A stretch of DNA of 46,375 nucleotides from Escherichia phage N15. Positions 39,896 through 46,319 of this stretch are shown here, in pieces. The notes below the pieces were generated by a model. It saw only the letters and a program-made list of their open reading frames with translations, ran no database searches and was not told where the DNA came from. Every line of letters starts with the position of its first letter. Position 1 is the stretch's first letter. The translations under genes were made by a program, and so were the position numbers. Where the stretch lies: the sequence record NC_001901.1. One strand, 5' to 3'.

Positions 39896-40183
39896 TCAAT
39901 ACACAGCATGAATATCAATGCTTGCACCGCAAGCCTTAGCGTATCGAGATAGTGTCTTCATGCTGGCACCTAGTGGGTTGCTTTCCAGGCGGCTAATTGC
40001 TGATGGCTGCAACCCCATGCGTTCAGCCAGCGCAGACTTCGTCAGGCCAGCTTTCTCCCTCATCTCGTAGAGCATTTCAACCATCGCCAACTCCTTGTCG
40101 GCATCTTCGTAACCCCGGATAGCCTCCGGGGTATTGAGCAGTTCTTCTTTCACCTGATTAAATGGGATGCCTTTTACTTTCAT
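39896..40183 (-). CDS. HTH (XRE-family) antitoxin, HigA-like
   Basis: 95 aa; LTKSALAERMGLQPSAISRLE HTH; ATG overlaps toxin stop (TAATG). Confidence 0.75.
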   Translation of the reverse strand: MKVKGIPFNQVKEELLNTPEAIRGYEDADKELAMVEMLYEMREKAGLTKSALAERMGLQPSAISRLESNPLGASMKTLSRYAKACGASIDIHAVY

Positions 40184-40494
40184 TAGCTCATCTCCTTCAG
40201 ACGCGTTCTGGCGATATCAATTGCGTGGGTAGGCGTCTTTTGCGTCTTCTTAACAAATGCATGTAGCAGATAAATTTCGTTACCTACCGCGTAAGCGTAC
40301 AGCGTTCTCGCTATGTTTTTATCCCCTACCCTTAGTTCGAAAAGGCCACCACCGATAACGCGGCTATGAGGCATTTTCAGCTTGTTCCCTTCACTTTCCA
40401 GTCTCTCGATCAGCCGGGTCATGCGACCGCGTAGCTCATCAGGTAATTCTTTAAGCTCATCCAGCGCTGCCGGGTGGGTTATCACGTTAAACAT
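40183..40494 (-). CDS. RelE/ParE-superfamily toxin, HigB-like (toxin-first operon)
   Basis: 103 aa from ATG 40494 with AGGAGG RBS; LKMPHSRVIGGGLFELRV...LYAYAVGNEIYLLHAFVKKTQKTP typical of this family. Confidence 0.75.
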   Translation of the reverse strand: MFNVITHPAALDELKELPDELRGRMTRLIERLESEGNKLKMPHSRVIGGGLFELRVGDKNIARTLYAYAVGNEIYLLHAFVKKTQKTPTHAIDIARTRLKEMS

Positions 40495-40554
40495 AGTATA
40501 ACCTCCTGATGTGGAAAATATACTAAAAACGTAAAAATCACACAATAGGCAAAT

Positions 40555-40570
40555 TTCACTAAAAAGTGAA
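40555..40570. promoter_or_regulatory. palindrome TTCACTAAAAAGTGAA upstream of toxin-antitoxin promoter (operator candidate)
   Basis: 5-bp inverted arms; candidate -35 TTGTGT / -10 TATATT on - strand just downstream. Confidence 0.45.
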
Positions 40571-40660
40571 AAATAAAGCTGGATGTGCTTATTGGGCAGA
40601 GTTACAGTTTGTGTCGTTGAGAGGGGTAAAGCCCATAACCGCATGAATCTGGAGTAAATT

Positions 40661-41386: not shown

Positions 41387-42475
41387 ATGTTAAAAACTAC
41401 ACAAATCAATGGAGCGCAGCTCGTTTGCGCAGATTCTCTGCAATTCATAAAAACCATCCCTGATAATTCCGTAAACCTGATCGCGACAGACCCGCCCTAT
41501 TTTGGCGTTAAGTCGAACGACTGGGACAACCAGTGGGAAAGTGACGCGGACTTTTTGGGCTGGCTTGATGAGTTTCTGGCGGAGTTCTGGAGGATACTGG
41601 CCCCAAATGGAAGCCTGTATATGTTTTCCGGTTCGCGGCTTGCGGCAAAAGTTGAATTACTTACCCGCGACCGTTTCAATGTTTTGAACCACATCACCTG
41701 GGCTAAACCGAGCGGTGTATGGCGGCGGCAAAATAAAGAGAGCCTGCGAGCATTCTTCCCGGCAACCGAGCGCATCATATTCGCTGAACATTACGGCGCG
41801 TCTGGCTATGCGAAAGGTCAGTCGGGTTATGCCAGCAAATGTGCAGAGTTGCGGAAAGACGTATTTTCTCCGTTGATTGGAGCATTTGCATCAGCCCGAC
41901 AGCAGCTGGGGATTTCAGCTGCGGACATCAACGCTGCGACAGGGAAAAAGATGTGTTCACACTGGTTTTCCTCGTCGCAGTGGCAGTTACCGTCGCTGGA
42001 TGACTTCAACAAGCTGCATGAGCTGTTTATGCAGCGGGCGCAAGTTCTCGGCGTAGCATGTCCTCCGCCATTCGATATCGGGTATAGCGAGCATGAAAAG
42101 CAGTATGCCGATCTAAAAACGCAATACGATGCGGTTAAAGCGCAATACGATGGCCTTAAGGCTCAGTATGAAAGCCTGCGCCGCCCGTTCTCTGTGACTG
42201 CAGATGTTCCCTATACGGATGTTTGGGAGTTCCCACCGGTGCAGTATTACCCAGGGAAACACCCGTGCGAGAAGCCAGCTGCGATGATGGAACATATCAT
42301 CAGGAGCAGCTCTCGCCCCGGCGATGTAGTCGCCGACTTCTTCATGGGGTCCGGTAGTACGATTAAGGAGGCTCTGAAGCTTGGGCGTAAGGCCATAGGC
42401 GTAGAAATTGAAGAAGAGCGTTACCTGCAGACAGTAGAAGAAGTTAAAGAAGTAGTAAAAAAAGAAGAGAGTTGA
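41387..42475 (+). CDS. DNA N6-adenine methyltransferase (beta-class, DPPY before FxGxG)
   Basis: NLIATDPPYF (motif IV) precedes DFFMGSGST (motif I); start uncertain (41342 or 41387). Confidence 0.8.
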   Translation: MLKTTQINGAQLVCADSLQFIKTIPDNSVNLIATDPPYFGVKSNDWDNQWESDADFLGWLDEFLAEFWRILAPNGSLYMFSGSRLAAKVELLTRDRFNVLNHITWAKPSGVWRRQNKESLRAFFPATERIIFAEHYGASGYAKGQSGYASKCAELRKDVFSPLIGAFASARQQLGISAADINAATGKKMCSHWFSSSQWQLPSLDDFNKLHELFMQRAQVLGVACPPPFDIGYSEHEKQYADLKTQYDAVKAQYDGLKAQYESLRRPFSVTADVPYTDVWEFPPVQYYPGKHPCEKPAAMMEHIIRSSSRPGDVVADFFMGSGSTIKEALKLGRKAIGVEIEEERYLQTVEEVKEVVKKEES

Positions 42476-42609: not shown

Positions 42610-42915
42610 ATGAGAATGAACGATCACTCAGGGAACATCTTCACGCAATTATTTGCGTGGCTTGGAACCATAGCTGCAGCGCTGGGTTTTACCACCCAAG
42701 ACATGATTTACATGTTTTTCGGGGCTGTGGGGCTTCTAATCTCCCTTGCATCCTTCATCAACGGAAGAATTGATGCACGCCGCCGTCGGAAAGAAGATGA
42801 GAAGCGAACGGCAATGATAAGGGCTTACCTGGAAGAAGTTAGCGATAAGCCTATCGAAGAACGTCCGACAGCGGTGAGCGTAGTAGCGGATGTACTCGCT
42901 AAGGCAGGCGAGTGA
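42610..42915 (+). CDS. holin (two TMDs, dual-start MRM motif)
   Basis: Two hydrophobic helices, charged C-terminus, Met-Arg-Met N-terminus; first gene of lysis cassette. Confidence 0.7.
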   Translation: MRMNDHSGNIFTQLFAWLGTIAAALGFTTQDMIYMFFGAVGLLISLASFINGRIDARRRRKEDEKRTAMIRAYLEEVSDKPIEERPTAVSVVADVLAKAGE

Positions 42916-43451
42916 TGGCTAACAGGGCAAAATTAAGCGCAGCCGTTCTAAGTTTGATTCTTGCTGGCGCGTCAGCCCCACAAATTCTCGACCAGTTTTT
43001 GGATGAGAAAGAGGGAAATAGCCTTACTGCTTACAAAGATGGCAGCGGCATCTGGACGATATGCCGTGGTGCCACAATGGTTGATGGCAAGCCAGTAATG
43101 CAGGGCATGAAGTTGACGCAGGCCAAATGCAATCAGGTAAACGCCATCGAACGCAATAAGGCTCTTGCGTGGGTTGACCGCAATATCAAAGTTCCTCTGA
43201 CCGAACCGCAGAAAGCCGGTATCGCATCTTTCTGCCCGTACAACATAGGCCCAGGCAAATGCTTCCCATCGACGTTCTATAAGCGTCTTAATGCTGGCGA
43301 CCGCCACGGGGCTTGTGAGGCGATCCGATGGTGGATAAAGGATGGTGGCCGCGACTGTCGACTGACCAAGGGCCAGAAGAATGGATGCTATGGGCAAGTT
43401 GAGCGGCGTGACCAGGAAAGTGCGTTGACGTGCTGGGAGATAGACCAGTGA
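42915..43451 (+). CDS. SAR endolysin, T4-lysozyme-like (GH24)
   Basis: N-terminal weakly hydrophobic Ala/Gly/Ser-rich signal-anchor; catalytic E...D...T in EGNSLTAYKDGSGIWT; phage 21 R-like. Confidence 0.85.
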   Translation: MANRAKLSAAVLSLILAGASAPQILDQFLDEKEGNSLTAYKDGSGIWTICRGATMVDGKPVMQGMKLTQAKCNQVNAIERNKALAWVDRNIKVPLTEPQKAGIASFCPYNIGPGKCFPSTFYKRLNAGDRHGACEAIRWWIKDGGRDCRLTKGQKNGCYGQVERRDQESALTCWEIDQ

Positions 43452-43993
43452 ATCCGTCCCCATTAATCGCAGCAATAAAAGCCTGGTGGAAGCCTTTATT
43501 CGTGCTGATTTTTGCGGCCAGCGCGTTTATCGCTGGCAATGTCTGGAGCAACAGGGCATGGGAAAAAAGGTGGGCTGACCGTGATAGTGCTGAGTCCTCG
43601 CAAAAGGTCAACGCGCAGACAGCCGCCAGAATGATAGAGCAAGGGCGAATTATTGCCCGTGATGAGGCCGTAAAGAATGCCAAAGAGAAAGCAGCTGCCG
43701 CGCGTGATGCTTCTGCTCGTTTGGCTGGCACTGTTAGTCAGCTGCAGCAACAGGCAAGAAAACTCGCTACCCGCCTGGACGCCGCAAAGCACACCGCAGA
43801 TCTTGCCGCTGCCGTCAGAGGCAAAACAGCCGGAGCCAACGCTGCAGTGCTCGCCGACATGCTCGGAAGTCTTGCAGCAGAAGCTAAATATTATGCTGAA
43901 CGATCTGACGAAAGCTATCGAGCAGGAATGACCTGCCAGCGTATTTATGACTCGGTTAGAGAGTCAAATAACCAATCTGGAGCCTCGCAATAG
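43430..43993 (+). CDS. Rz-like inner-membrane spanin (i-spanin)
   Basis: N-terminal TMD then Ala/Gln/Arg-rich coiled coil; GTG start (43430 or 43448) overlapping endolysin end. Confidence 0.7.
   Translation: MLGDRPVNPSPLIAAIKAWWKPLFVLIFAASAFIAGNVWSNRAWEKRWADRDSAESSQKVNAQTAARMIEQGRIIARDEAVKNAKEKAAAARDASARLAGTVSQLQQQARKLATRLDAAKHTADLAAAVRGKTAGANAAVLADMLGSLAAEAKYYAERSDESYRAGMTCQRIYDSVRESNNQSGASQ
43677..43931 (+). CDS. Rz1-like outer-membrane lipoprotein spanin embedded in +1 frame of Rz (start 43677 or 43707)
   Basis: Lipobox LLVSC after hydrophobic leader; Pro-rich mature part; embedded in Rz. Confidence 0.6.
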   Translation: MPKRKQLPRVMLLLVWLALLVSCSNRQENSLPAWTPQSTPQILPLPSEAKQPEPTLQCSPTCSEVLQQKLNIMLNDLTKAIEQE

Positions 43994-44029: not shown

Positions 44030-44233
44030 ATGGCGAAAATCAAACTGACCCTCGAACAAATTAAATCTTTGGCTAAGTTTGCAGAGGAAGAAGGCCAGCC
44101 TGAATACACAATCTGTCATGGTCAAATCCCCGGCTTCGATAATGTTCCAGATTACAATGGTTTGATTGCGTTTTCTGGCTCTGAAGAGCATGGCGTTCTG
44201 GCTTTGGAAGATATGGAGCAGGGTGATAAGTGA
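44030..44233 (+). CDS. hypothetical protein (67 aa)
   Basis: RBS GGAGAGAAA. Confidence 0.5.
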   Translation: MAKIKLTLEQIKSLAKFAEEEGQPEYTICHGQIPGFDNVPDYNGLIAFSGSEEHGVLALEDMEQGDK

Positions 44234-44565
44234 TGAAAGTTTATATCGCCGGGCCAATGACAGGCCGTGAAAATTATAACCGTGCCGCTTTCAATAAAGA
44301 GGCAGACCGCCTTACCCGCCACGGTCACACAGTTCTGAACCCAGCCAGCCTTCCTGATGGTCTGGAACAGCGCGAATACATGGATATCTGTTTTGCGATG
44401 CTCCGCTGCGCTGATGCAATCATGATGCTGCCAGGCTGGCAAGCGTCGTCCGGTGCGACAGCCGAATATCACTACGCGTACAAAATGGAATTGCCAGTCT
44501 ATACGGTTCTGCATTATCCACCTGTAGCGCTTGAGAAGGAAATTGATGAGCGCCTTTTACAATGA
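44233..44565 (+). CDS. DUF4406-like / nucleoside 2-deoxyribosyltransferase-like protein
   Basis: N-terminal MKVYIAGPMTG motif; ATG overlaps previous stop. Confidence 0.55.
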   Translation: MKVYIAGPMTGRENYNRAAFNKEADRLTRHGHTVLNPASLPDGLEQREYMDICFAMLRCADAIMMLPGWQASSGATAEYHYAYKMELPVYTVLHYPPVALEKEIDERLLQ

Positions 44566-45541
44566 ATTTGAAAGATATCCCGCAACATGGCTAAGCAACC
44601 TGATCGCGAACGGTTCAATAGCAAACGGCATTGTTGATGAGCGCTCTATTGTTGATGTTGCTCCGTCAGATGTTATCAATAAAACGCAATGCCACTGGTT
44701 TGCTGGGATTGGAGTTTGGAGTTATGCGTTGCGTTTAGCTGGCTGGCCAGATAGCCGTTCTGTATGGACAGCCAGCCTGCCATGCCAGCCGTGGAGCTCT
44801 GCAGGAAAGGGAGGAAAATTTGATGACGAACGACACCTCTGGCCTGTGTTTTTCAGACTCGTTAAAGAGTGCCGCCCTCCAGTCATTTTTGGTGAGCAGG
44901 TTTCAAGCAAGGACGGCCTTGAGTGGTTCTCAGCTGTACAAACTGACCTGGAAAATGCGGGCTATGCCGTTGCAGCGCTTGATACATGCGCAGCGAGCGT
45001 CGGTGCTCCGCACATCAGACAAAGAATCTTCTGGATGGCCTACGACTACAGCCAGCAATACCAAAACGGCGATAAAGGATGTAGTGAAAATACTGGCCAG
45101 AAGAGCAGCGGGACGACAGTCGAACTTGCAGGATGTAGCAGTTCTTGCCGGATGGAATACACCGACAGCATCAGACTGCAAAGGAGGGTATCAGGGAGGG
45201 AGGATACGAAACGGGAAATTATCGACCGACCGCCTGGATGTAACATCGCAGTTGGCGGGATGGTCACCCGAAACGCTCCCGTCACTGAATTCAAACCAGA
45301 AAATCACAGCGCCCTGGGGGCCGTGCAGACTGACTCATACTGGAGAGATATTGACTGGCTCTTCTGCCAGGATGGAAAGTGGAGGCCAGTTGAACCCTCA
45401 TCATTCCCGCTGGCTGATGGGATTGCCGGTCGAGTGGGCCAGTTGCGCGCCTACGGGAACGCGATAGTCGCTCCATTAGCGGCAGCATTCATCACCTCGG
45501 CTTATCAGGCAATCCAGGACTTCGAATCCCAAAAAAAATAA
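44546..45541 (+). CDS. DNA C5-cytosine methyltransferase-like protein
   Basis: FAGIGV (motif I-like), [11 protein letters not shown] (PCQ motif IV), FGEQV (ENV-like), QRIFWMAY (VIII), YGNAIV (X); RBS GAAGGAAA. Confidence 0.6.
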
Positions 45542-45578: not shown

Positions 45579-45695
45579 GCTTTTCCATTCTCATAGACAT
45601 GAGCGTTGCTGCGTAACGGGTTCATTGCCCAATCTGCGTCGCGTATAGCGCTCATGTTTATGAGAGTTGCCTCAACACATCTAAAAGGATCTATC

Positions 45696-46319
45696 ATGTC
45701 AGAATCTGTAAGCATCAGTCATGTAGCAACGATGTCTAAACCGTTTGGTGTAAACGTCGAATGGAAATGGCCAAATGGCAGCAGCTGGTTTTCCAAGTTG
45801 GAACTGCAATGCCTCCGCGAAGACGGGCGGCTAGTGAAAGAGTGCATATATTATCCGAATACTAGCCATCTTATTTCCGGTCTTAAATGTGGTGAGCGCG
45901 TGCAGGTACGGGTGCGCATCGTTGCAGTGAACGGTTCTACCCGAGACTGGCAGGTTAGTGACTGGATTCAAGGCGAATCATCTGTTGATGCTGGCGATAT
46001 CGTCCAGTGGTTGGAAGACGAAATCCGGAACAGCGAGACGTTTAAAGTATTTCGCGGCCAGTGCTTTATTAACGAAGGAAAGATTGGCAATGGCATCGTT
46101 TCTACGAACTATAACGTGAAGTTGAACATGAGCGACACTGCCAAGCAGCATGGATGTGGATTGTTCGTTGGTATCGATGTGCAGAAGGGCAAGGCGTCAG
46201 GGGCTGAAGGGAAAACATCTGAGCTTAAAAAAGAGATCGACGAATGGATTACAGAGACGATCCATCTGCATTGCCGCCCAGGTGGCATTATCTGGCAGGC
46301 TACAAGGCGCAATCGATAA
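45696..46319 (+). CDS. hypothetical protein with FN3-like segment and tape-measure-like C-terminal motif
   Basis: RBS AAAGGA before ATG 45696; C-terminus PGGIIWQATRRNR resembles tape measure C-terminus PGGLIWNATNRR. Confidence 0.5.
   Translation: MSESVSISHVATMSKPFGVNVEWKWPNGSSWFSKLELQCLREDGRLVKECIYYPNTSHLISGLKCGERVQVRVRIVAVNGSTRDWQVSDWIQGESSVDAGDIVQWLEDEIRNSETFKVFRGQCFINEGKIGNGIVSTNYNVKLNMSDTAKQHGCGLFVGIDVQKGKASGAEGKTSELKKEIDEWITETIHLHCRPGGIIWQATRRNR

What the first reader, a model, noticed from the sequence alone, without database searches (positions are those of the whole stretch)
44233..45541. DUF4406-like gene translationally coupled to a C5-cytosine methyltransferase-like gene near the right cos end
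The 110-aa ORF begins MKVYIAGPMTG, the signature of the DUF4406 / nucleoside 2-deoxyribosyltransferase-like family. The next ORF carries C5-methyltransferase motifs ([22 protein letters not shown]) but has an unusually short spacing between motif I and the PCQ motif and a 45-aa N-terminal extension. Together with the separate N6-adenine methyltransferase at 41387 the phage has at least two DNA-modifying enzymes. The pairing suggests an anti-restriction or DNA-modification function, but I cannot tell from sequence whether the second enzyme is a plain Dcm-like methylase or acts on a modified base.
Basis: partly seen in the sequence, partly recalled or inferred. Interest (0 to 1): 0.5.

Follow-up and report, generated by a model that had tools for sequence, protein, structure and literature searches.

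The report
Phage methylase gene hiding second gene

Summary
A DUF4406 gene lies at 44233-44565 (Pfam E 7.5e-35). A C5-cytosine methyltransferase gene follows, starting at ATG 44546 rather than 44531, and overlaps it by 20 nt.

Inside the methylase gene (frame A, 331 aa) lies a 215-codon ORF in the +1 frame (frame B, 44820-45467) with its own GGGAGG ribosome-binding site.

- Both frames are open in all 93 homologues examined.
- Synonymous sites of A are suppressed where both frames are conserved.
- In the gene's middle, substitutions fall on B's third codon positions. Window versus nearest relative: B syn:nonsyn 21:10, A 7:24.
- A nevertheless never acquires a stop there.

A carries motifs I, IV, VI, VIII and X around an unconserved, disordered linker. 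B carries WPTP-type modules and a motif-IX-like [16 protein letters not shown].

This matches the published M.EcoHK31I architecture, in which a beta subunit is encoded in another frame inside alpha and both are needed for activity. I therefore read it as a two-subunit orphan anti-restriction methylase.

DUF4406 adjacency occurs in only 5 of 93 loci, so it is not a conserved module. All of this is computational: expression of B, association of the two proteins, and homology to M.EcoHK31I are untested.

The parts
44030..44233 (+). 67-aa ORF upstream of DUF4406 (phrog_9518, unknown function). Its stop overlaps the DUF4406 start (TGATG).
44233..44565 (+). DUF4406 gene (nucleoside 2-deoxyribosyltransferase-like fold family), 110 aa.
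   Evidence: PF14359 E 7.5e-35; phrog_355 E 2.5e-45
44546..45541 (+). Frame A: C5-cytosine methyltransferase alpha-like chain, 331 aa. Motif I 44699-44716, PCQ 44780-44788, GEQV 44891-44902, PHIRQR 45008-45025, GNAIV 45455-45469. Overlaps the DUF4406 ORF by 20 nt.
   Evidence: PF00145 E 1.2e-15; phrog_363 E 1.4e-78; HMMER and Foldseek matches to M.HhaI/HaeIII; AlphaFold residues 1-170 mostly pLDDT above 80
44546..44692 (+). N-terminal 49 aa of frame A ([16 protein letters not shown]...VDERSIVDV). Motif II/III-like segment lying before motif I, an apparent permuted order.
   Evidence: Best hhalign hits fall on the motif II region of the canonical-order relatives ABMM1 (residues 28-47) and BKO1-TP3 (27-41), but only weakly (E 0.059, 0.23). 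Strand-helix pattern in the AlphaFold model. No PDB sequence hit.
45056..45325 (+). Frame A linker: unconserved, length-variable, predicted disordered, yet never interrupted by a stop.
   Evidence: A consensus frequency 0.13-0.40; pLDDT below 50; 0 stops in 81 sequences against 1.74 expected per sequence under B-synonymous shuffles; A syn:nonsyn 7:24 versus L014
44809..44814 (+). GGGAGG Shine-Dalgarno for frame B, 5 nt before TTG 44820 and 8 nt before ATG 44823.
   Evidence: Sequence. The GGAGG and TTG are kept in the window, L014, L015, L016 and L102.
44820..45467 (+). Frame B (+1 relative to A): nested 215-aa ORF, a beta-like chain. [10 protein letters not shown] 44925-44954; WPTTTAS 45036-45056; WNTPTASD 45153-45176; [17 protein letters not shown] 45387-45437; stop TAG 45465-45467.
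   Evidence: tblastn 217 phage records, most at full coverage; phrog_1008 and phrog_31772; open in 93 of 93 homologues; substitution phase switch and syn:nonsyn 21:10; 17,189 cluster representatives
44736..44738 (+). TAG in frame B that cuts off the N-terminal extension of roughly 30-65 residues found in most homologues. Upstream of 44820 the DNA evolves as A-only.
45326..45467 (+). Doubly constrained block. Frame A reads [40 protein letters not shown]; frame B reads [46 protein letters not shown].
   Evidence: All three codon positions 0.76-0.95 conserved in 93 sequences; 2-5 times fewer differences per site than the A-only regions in the L015 and L016 comparisons
41387..42475 (+). Separate N6/N4-type DNA methyltransferase (context).
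   Evidence: PF01555 E 3.6e-50

Best explanation
The right end of this cos phage carries a small late operon: orf67, then DUF4406, then a methylase gene. The methylase DNA encodes two proteins.

- Frame A (44546-45541) gives the catalytic large-domain chain. It has AdoMet-binding motif I, the catalytic Cys of PCQ, motifs VI and VIII, and motif X with its helix. These are joined by a long unconserved linker where a normal C5 methylase has its target-recognition (small) domain.
- Frame B (+1; 44820-45467) is translated from its own ribosome-binding site. It gives a 215-aa chain with a beta-hairpin segment ([10 protein letters not shown]...), WPTP-type modules and a motif-IX-like [16 protein letters not shown].

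By analogy with M.EcoHK31I, where beta is nested in another frame of alpha and both chains are required, I propose that A and B associate. In this model B supplies the small-domain and motif-IX function, and probably the DNA recognition. The complex would methylate cytosine C5 in phage DNA to evade host restriction.

Shown here: both frames are open, both are under purifying selection, and a start signal for B is present. Inferred: translation of B, association of A with B, B's role in recognition, and the anti-restriction purpose. DUF4406 is a co-transcribed neighbour of unknown nucleotide-related function, not part of the enzyme.
For: - Conservation of both frames: A and B are conserved at the same places in diverse phages.
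- Openness: the +1 frame is open over 73-100% (median 91%) of the gene in 93 of 93 homologues. The +2 frame is open over a median of 18%. Synonymous-codon shuffles give P 0.000-0.008 per genome.
- Synonymous-site suppression: the majority-nucleotide frequency at A's third codon position is 0.43-0.66 upstream. It rises to 0.70-0.81 and 0.83-0.95 in the two overlap blocks and drops again after B's stop.
- Window lineage: differences fall on A3 in the A-only parts and on B3 in the middle. Counts at A1/A2/A3 there are 20/7/4, 52/28/29 and 55/16/15. Against L014 in the middle, B syn:nonsyn is 21:10 and A is 7:24.
- A kept open: no stop in A's unconserved middle in 81 sequences, against 1.74 expected per sequence.
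- Start signal: GGGAGG followed by TTG/ATG, conserved in close relatives.
- Distant relatives: nested B-type ORFs occur in Firmicute (Pagassa), Acinetobacter (ABMM1; hhalign probability 95%, E 3e-8) and Bacteroides phages.
- Structure prediction of A: residues 1-170 mostly pLDDT above 80 and similar to M.HhaI/HaeIII; residues 170-305 below 50.
- Precedent: M.EcoHK31I, as described in PMC2836561 and PMC3404938.
Against: - There is no expression, proteomic or methylation data.
- B alone gives a poor AlphaFold model (pLDDT 55, pTM 0.27).
- Neither Pfam nor PDB profiles recognise B or its 'motif IX'.
- Artificial A-B-A composites gain no PF00145 score.
- hhalign links between B and actinophage frame-A C-termini are short and weak (E 4e-4 and 2e-3).
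- Homology to M.EcoHK31I alpha/beta could not be tested because the sequence is not held.
- The literature places M.EcoHK31I's predicted TRD in alpha, not beta.
- In the window, B lacks the N-terminal stretch that most homologues have. In M.EcoHK31I the beta N-terminus matters for association.
Confidence: 0.6

Rival explanations
1. Frame B encodes a real, independently translated protein, but its job has nothing to do with the methylase. It could be an overprinted anti-defence, DNA-binding or regulatory protein that merely shares the DNA.
For: B is under purifying selection. It has no recognisable domain and no confident fold, as is common for overprinted proteins. The motif IX resemblance is not statistically supported.
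Against: The nesting is strict across phyla and always inside this type of methylase, whose own variable region is degenerate. The M.EcoHK31I precedent has a functional beta chain in the same arrangement. The WLMGxPxGW motif lies in the methylase's own frame in actinophage enzymes, just before motif X.
Confidence: 0.2
2. One polypeptide is made by recoding. Ribosomes shift +1 from A into B after motif VIII and back -1 before motif X, giving a canonical single-chain enzyme. Alternatively a single shift gives an A-N::B fusion.
For: The order A(I-VIII), then B (modules plus IX-like), then A(X) mimics a canonical methylase. B's EW lies only about 6 codons before A's GNAIV. In actinophages the B-like ORF ends where frame A starts to look like real protein again.
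Against: No conserved slippery or stall site was found, and the sequence at the junctions varies among homologues. Frame B is constrained over about 70 codons upstream of motif VIII, and frame A over about 40 codons upstream of motif X; neither would be needed in such a product. A stays open through its entire junk region. B has its own SD and start codon in several lineages, including an ATG 4 nt after A's ATG in ABMM1. Composites gain no Pfam score.
Confidence: 0.07
3. An ordinary single-chain Dcm-like methylase. Frame B is a non-functional shadow ORF produced by composition and by conservation of frame A.
For: The gene is 51-70% GC in most homologues, and high GC favours open alternative frames. 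PGAP annotates only frame A.
Against: The +2 frame and the antisense frames are not open to the same extent. The shuffles reject chance. B is conserved exactly where A is not, substitutions there follow B's codon phase, and B syn:nonsyn is 21:10. B-type ORFs persist in genes of 46-50% GC from phages of other phyla.
Confidence: 0.05
4. One reading: DUF4406 and the methylase act together in a base-hypermodification or nucleotide-pool pathway, with the enzyme acting on a modified base or making something other than 5mC.
For: The genes overlap by 20 nt in the window and its close relatives. DUF4406 belongs to a nucleoside/nucleotide N-glycoside-handling fold family. The top Foldseek hit of A is a C5-carboxymethyltransferase, at an E-value similar to those of M.HhaI/HaeIII.
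Against: Adjacency occurs in only 5 of 93 loci. The methylase family occurs with many other neighbours. The catalytic motifs are those of ordinary C5 methyltransferases. The Foldseek ranking does not discriminate between these enzymes.
Confidence: 0.08

Closest known systems
M.EcoHK31I (YGGCCR) heterodimeric C5 methyltransferase (Lee, Kam & Shaw 1995, as described in PMC2836561 and PMC3404938)
   Same: Two polypeptides come from one stretch of DNA. The smaller chain is encoded entirely in another reading frame inside the larger one. [quoted passage not shown] Both are needed for activity.
   Different: M.EcoHK31I is part of a restriction-modification system, whereas this enzyme is an orphan phage methylase. 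Its TRD is assigned (by prediction) to alpha, whereas here alpha's variable region is unconserved and disordered and the conserved modules lie in the nested chain.
M.AquI alpha/beta split C5 methyltransferase
   Same: A naturally two-subunit C5 methylase split within the variable region.
   Different: In M.AquI the two subunits divide the canonical motif order between them: I-VIII plus part of the variable region, then the rest of the variable region plus IX-X. They are not described as one chain nested inside the other, and motif X is on the small subunit.
Rz/Rz1 spanin genes of lambdoid phages
   Same: A complete gene nested in the +1 frame of another, encoding partners that act together. 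This window has such a pair at 43430-43993 / 43677-43931.
   Different: Unrelated proteins and function. The Rz1 overlap is about 250 nt, against 648 nt here and up to about 900 nt in ABMM1.
Multispecific phage C5 methylases (SPR, phi3T type; from my own knowledge)
   Same: Orphan phage anti-restriction C5 methylases with tandem, variable-number recognition modules between motifs VIII and IX.
   Different: Those are single chains with TRDs in frame. Here the variable-number WPTP modules (0-5 per protein) lie in a separate nested chain, and a role in specificity is only a hypothesis.
DUF4406 / nucleoside 2-deoxyribosyltransferase-like proteins (PF14359, PF05014)
   Same: The 110-aa ORF matches the full DUF4406 profile and keeps the SxGxxxE-type motif (SSGATAEY).
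   Different: It scores below the Pfam cutoff for true Nuc_deoxyrib_tr (25.4 against 28.8 bits). No function is established for DUF4406.

Membership tests
C5-cytosine DNA methyltransferase (PF00145) | Score above Pfam's gathering threshold | tested here: met
   58.3 bits against a cutoff of 22, but only profile positions 65-180 are matched
C5-cytosine DNA methyltransferase (PF00145) | Catalytic motifs: I FxGxG, IV PCQ (Cys nucleophile), VI ENV (Glu), VIII RxR, X GNxV | tested here: met
   FAGIGV, PCQ, GEQV (Q in place of N), HIRQR and GNAIV are present and invariant or nearly so in 60 homologues
C5-cytosine DNA methyltransferase (PF00145) | Canonical motif order I-II-III-IV | tested here: not met
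   M.HhaI residues 33-71 have no counterpart between motifs I and IV. The motif II-like segment lies N-terminal of motif I, with weak support.
C5-cytosine DNA methyltransferase (PF00145) | Folded target-recognition (small) domain plus motif IX between motifs VIII and X in the same chain | tested here: not met
   The region is unconserved, variable in length, and has pLDDT below 50
C5-cytosine DNA methyltransferase (PF00145) | Methyltransferase activity giving 5mC in DNA | not testable with these tools
   Needs methylation-sensitive digestion, bisulfite or EM-seq, or nanopore sequencing
Nested alpha/beta C5 methylase (M.EcoHK31I type) | Second ORF wholly inside the methylase gene in another frame | tested here: met
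   44820-45467 in the +1 frame of 44546-45541
Nested alpha/beta C5 methylase (M.EcoHK31I type) | Both frames are protein-coding (under purifying selection) | tested here: met
Nested alpha/beta C5 methylase (M.EcoHK31I type) | Large chain has motifs I-VIII and X; small chain has motif IX | tested here: inconclusive
   The motifs in A are clear. B's [16 protein letters not shown] resembles motif IX by eye, and resembles the in-frame EFYEWLMGLPRGW that precedes GNGVVPQ in actinophage enzymes. Pfam does not score it and the hhalign links are weak.
Nested alpha/beta C5 methylase (M.EcoHK31I type) | Sequence homology to M.EcoHK31I alpha and beta | not testable with these tools
   The sequence is not held in any reachable collection, and the 1995 paper is not in the library
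Nested alpha/beta C5 methylase (M.EcoHK31I type) | Both chains are made, associate, and are required for activity | not testable with these tools
   Needs expression, pull-down and activity assays
DUF4406 (PF14359) | Score above the gathering threshold over the full profile | tested here: met
   119.7 bits against a cutoff of 22, profile positions 1-90 of 91
Nucleoside 2-deoxyribosyltransferase (PF05014) | Score above the gathering threshold | tested here: not met
   25.4 bits against a cutoff of 28.8
Conserved DUF4406-methylase gene module | Recurrent adjacency across the methylase family | tested here: not met
   5 of 93 loci, four of them near relatives of the window

The most novel reading that the evidence does not exclude
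The nested chain, not the annotated methylase chain, is the DNA-recognition subunit of a very large, cross-phylum class of phage C5 methylases. Its variable number of WPTP-type modules would set the target specificity, possibly several specificities at once. If so, tens of thousands of 'DNA cytosine methyltransferase' annotations describe only half an enzyme. The 650-900-nt dual-coding region would be among the longest and most widely conserved overlapping gene pairs in bacterial viruses, and the dual-coding arrangement would predate the split between the phages of Gram-negative, Firmicute and Bacteroidota hosts sampled here.
Probability: 0.3. Interest if true: 0.8.

Novelty: new variant of a known kind. 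Interest (0 to 1): 0.6.

Why it matters
- Missing subunit: if the nested chain is needed for activity, cloning or annotating only frame A gives an inactive or non-specific enzyme. Specificity predictions for thousands of phage and prophage methylases would then be looking at the wrong polypeptide.
- Blind spot in annotation: the family has at least 17,189 clusters at 50% identity but no Pfam or NCBIfam model. PGAP annotates only frame A in the homologues seen here. Other gene callers pick frame B and lose the methylase.
- A study system: it offers a well-sampled natural case for how two proteins co-evolve on one DNA sequence.
- This phage: it means at least two DNA methylases (N6-adenine and C5-cytosine) are likely used against host restriction.

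Tried and rejected
- Pfam, NCBIfam and PDB-sequence profile searches with frame B found nothing.
- AlphaFold on window B with a 66-sequence alignment gave pLDDT 55 and pTM 0.27, too poor for a fold search.
- Artificial A-B-A composites scanned against Pfam gained nothing over A alone. I therefore dropped the double-frameshift single-chain idea as the lead model.
- I looked for a +1 shift site near 44809-44825 (SD followed by TTT G). There is no in-frame stop or rare codon, and the site is not conserved in homologues that read GF(A)DER.
- Tests of the N-terminal permutation: phmmer and hmmsearch of the first 49 aa against the PDB gave nothing relevant. hhalign against canonical-order relatives picks motif II but is weak. 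I keep it as 'apparent'.
- hhalign of the B profile against actinophage frame-A proteins gave only a 15-19 column match.
- DUF4406 co-occurrence: rejected as a conserved module.
- Literature: eight searches. No paper describes the nested ORF in phage methylases. 'Mte8-like' is only a GenBank label. The M.EcoHK31I precedent came, and the original 1995 paper is not held.
- Megablast against complete E. coli genomes gave no match.
Full report
**1. The observation**

The window is a complete cos-ended lambdoid genome. Terminase genes lie at 89-2489, the lysis genes at 42610-43993, and the sequence ends in a cos-like GGGCGGCG.

At the reported place there is a 110-aa ORF (ATG 44233-44565). It matches DUF4406 over the whole profile (E 7.5e-35). 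It scores below the cutoff for true nucleoside 2-deoxyribosyltransferases and hits phrog_355.

It is followed by a C5-cytosine methyltransferase gene. This matches PF00145 (E 1.2e-15, motifs IV-VIII only), phrog_363 full length (E 1.4e-78), M.HhaI by HMMER (E 2e-15), and M.HhaI/HaeIII by Foldseek (E about 1e-7).

Homologue alignments place the start at ATG 44546, not 44531. The gene therefore overlaps the DUF4406 ORF by 20 nt, as it does in the close relatives L014 and L102. The N6 methylase at 41387 is also real (PF01555, E 3.6e-50).

**2.

The ORF listing shows a 215-aa ORF at 44820-45467 in the +1 frame of the methylase gene. I call the methylase frame A and the nested frame B.

- tblastn with A hits 413 phage records. 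tblastn with B hits 217 records at 43-55% identity, 207 of them covering at least 80% of the query (most listed hits cover all of it).
- The two sets of hits coincide in Salmonella, Edwardsiella, Aeromonas, Klebsiella, Pseudomonas, Burkholderia, Bordetella, Rhodobacter, Xanthomonas, Vibrio and Erwinia phages.
- In 13 annotated phage loci and 80 IMG/VR loci both frames are open. The +1 frame spans 73-100% (median 91%) of the gene in 93 of 93 cases. The +2 frame spans a median of 18% and antisense frames a median of 45%.
- Shuffling synonymous codons of A gives an equally long +1 ORF in 0-0.8% of trials per genome, tested on 12 lower-GC members.

**3. Both frames are under selection**

On a 93-sequence codon alignment I measured the majority-nucleotide frequency at A's third codon position.

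| Region | A third-position frequency |
|---|---|
| Upstream of the overlap | 0.43-0.66 |
| 44786-45025 | 0.70-0.81 |
| 45326-45445 | 0.83-0.95 |
| After B's stop | 0.64, then 0.54 |

This is classic synonymous-site suppression.

In the middle (45056-45325), A is unconserved (0.13-0.40) and variable in length, while B keeps GWPTP-type modules.

The window's own lineage shows the same thing in comparisons with L014, L015 and L016.

- In A-only DNA, including 44739-44819, differences fall on A's third position.
- In the middle they fall on A's first position, which is B's third: 20/7/4, 52/28/29 and 55/16/15 at A1/A2/A3.
- In the L015 and L016 comparisons the two doubly conserved blocks have 2-5 times fewer differences per site than the A-only regions.

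Against L014 the middle gives B syn:nonsyn 21:10 and A 7:24. The A-only N-terminal part gives A 9:3 and B 2:10.

Frame A nevertheless has no stop in its 54-165-codon middle in any of 81 sequences. B-synonymous shuffles predict 1.74 stops per sequence, with P(none) of about 0.13-0.19 each. A is therefore read through a spacer whose sequence does not matter, while B is a conventional coding sequence there.

**4. Anatomy**

Frame A:
- Residues 1-170 give a mostly confident Rossmann-type large domain (pLDDT above 80, dipping around residues 81-100 and 149-157).
- Residues 170-305 have pLDDT below 50.
- The helix after GNAIV has pLDDT of about 90.
- M.HhaI residues 33-71 (motifs II-III) have no counterpart between A's motifs I and IV.
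- The conserved N-terminal YYNEIDPYAAQWLRNL...VDERSIEDV looks like motif II/III moved in front of motif I. hhalign puts it on the motif II region of two canonical-order relatives, but weakly (E 0.059 and 0.23). PDB sequence searches do not confirm it.

Frame B:
- Family consensus...ASLSARQAKExGLLTSGT...GSTLYKLTWK..TP.GR..ALRAS..RTS..GWPTPTA..(0-5 WPTP-type modules)..ARLTASGEMLTGS.[30 protein letters not shown].
- In the window a TAG at 44736 removes the N-terminal stretch that most homologues have. Those start at ATGs equivalent to 44624-44666.
- Translation here most likely starts at TTG 44820 or ATG 44823, behind GGGAGG (44809-14). The GGAGG and TTG are kept in all five close relatives.
- B has no Pfam, NCBIfam or PDB-sequence match and no confident fold on its own.
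- It does form PHROG families phrog_1008 and phrog_31772.
- It has more than 7,500 predicted relatives in the word-indexed search, and 17,189 representatives of 50% clusters at E of 1e-3 or better.

**5. How old and how widespread**

- Paenibacillus phage Pagassa (gene GC 47%, canonical motif order) has the nested ORF annotated as PAGASSA_60...YLTWK...FWGTPSASD...MWPTPAAQD...GQLNPDWVECLMGFPIGWTD.
- Acinetobacter phage ABMM1 (GC 50%) has a +1 ORF covering 298 of 304 codons. It starts 4 nt after the methylase ATG and shares its Shine-Dalgarno. hhalign to the B profile gives probability 95%, E 3e-8.
- A Bacteroides phage (GC 46%) has a 329-codon B-type ORF.
- In the actinophages Chanagan and Trax only the first part of B is open in +1. 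The xFxEWLMGLPxGWVT motif lies in frame A about 15 residues before GNGVVPQ. This fits motif IX, but the statistics are weak.

**6. Is it known?**

Some GenBank records annotate both ORFs. Examples are K1H ('C-specific methylase' plus 'Mte8-like protein'), K1G and Pagassa. Others annotate only frame B (Cr-LKS3, PhiXhv-7). PGAP annotates only frame A. A metagenome gene caller called only B in P2-like Edwardsiella prophages.

I found no paper discussing this for phage enzymes.

The literature does hold a precedent. M.EcoHK31I consists of alpha (motifs I-VIII, X and the predicted TRD) and beta (motif IX). [quoted passage not shown] I could not obtain its sequence, so kinship is inferred from architecture alone.

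**7. Interpretation**

The best reading is a two-chain orphan C5 methylase. A is the catalytic chain. B is the nested small-domain, motif-IX and probably recognition chain.

Dual coding itself I hold at about 0.9. The functional model (A-B complex needed for methylation, anti-restriction role) I hold at about 0.6.

Rivals, with evidence in the Rival explanations section:
- B has an unrelated function (0.2).
- Recoding into a single chain (0.07).
- B is a shadow ORF (0.05).
- A DUF4406-linked hypermodification pathway (0.08).

DUF4406 lies next to this methylase family in only 5 of 93 loci. I treat it as an operon neighbour of unknown nucleotide-related function.

**8. Verdict**

The reported genes are ordinary in themselves. 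The locus is interesting because it is a clear, statistically strong instance of a nested, doubly constrained gene pair of the M.EcoHK31I type. It belongs to a very large and mostly half-annotated phage family.

It shows three variant features:
- an apparently permuted N-terminus;
- a degenerate variable region in A, with the conserved modules in B;
- an N-terminally shortened B in this lineage.

All functional claims await experiment.

Noticed in passing
43430-43993 and 43677-43931 (+): The Rz-type gene holds a nested +1-frame 84-aa ORF with a lipobox (MPKRKQLPRVMLLLVWLALLVSC...), i.e. an Rz1-type o-spanin. The phage therefore has two nested +1-frame gene pairs within 2 kb.
   Followed up: partly
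41342/41387-42475 (+): The N6/N4-type methylase (PF01555) carries a heptad-like insert, YADLKTQYDAVKAQYDGLKAQYESL, between its two PF01555 stretches. The insert gives weak leucine-zipper/DivIC hits.
   Followed up: no
45606-46319 (+): A 237-aa ORF between the methylase and cos matches phrog_13555 (E 1e-101). It has weak fibronectin-III and tail-fibre-J-like matches, an odd place for a tail-like domain.
   Followed up: no
40183-40644 (-): The C-terminal part of this ORF (MFNVITHPAALDELKELPDELRGRM...YLLHAFVKKTQKTP) looks like a Gp49/HigB-type toxin. Not tested.
   Followed up: no
L103/L104 2501-3367; L006 1616-2353; L009 1577-2383: In P2-like Edwardsiella prophage contigs, and in the GenBank records of Cylindrospermopsis phage Cr-LKS3 and Xanthomonas phage PhiXhv-7, only the nested frame B is called. 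The methylase frame is left unannotated.
   Followed up: yes
L099 848-1762 (Acinetobacter phage ABMM1): The methylase ATG (848) and the nested-frame ATG (852) are 4 nt apart behind one GGAG. The nested ORF spans 298 of 304 codons, the most complete overlap seen.
   Followed up: partly
L097 791-1708, L100 791-1654 (actinophages Chanagan, Trax): Here the WLMGxPxGW motif and GNGVVPQ are both in the methylase frame, and only the first half of the B-like ORF (with LLPTPLARDSKG) is open in +1. This suggests frame changes during the family's history.
   Followed up: partly
44891-44902: Motif VI reads GEQV (E-Q-V) rather than the usual E-N-V. The E and Q are invariant in 60 homologues.
   Followed up: no
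whole window: There is no megablast match to this region in 5,426 complete E. coli genomes. The closest hits are a 49.8-kb Citrobacter freundii 'plasmid' (frame B 83% identical) and Salmonella or Logan contigs, so the host is probably Citrobacter, Enterobacter or Salmonella rather than E. coli.
   Followed up: partly
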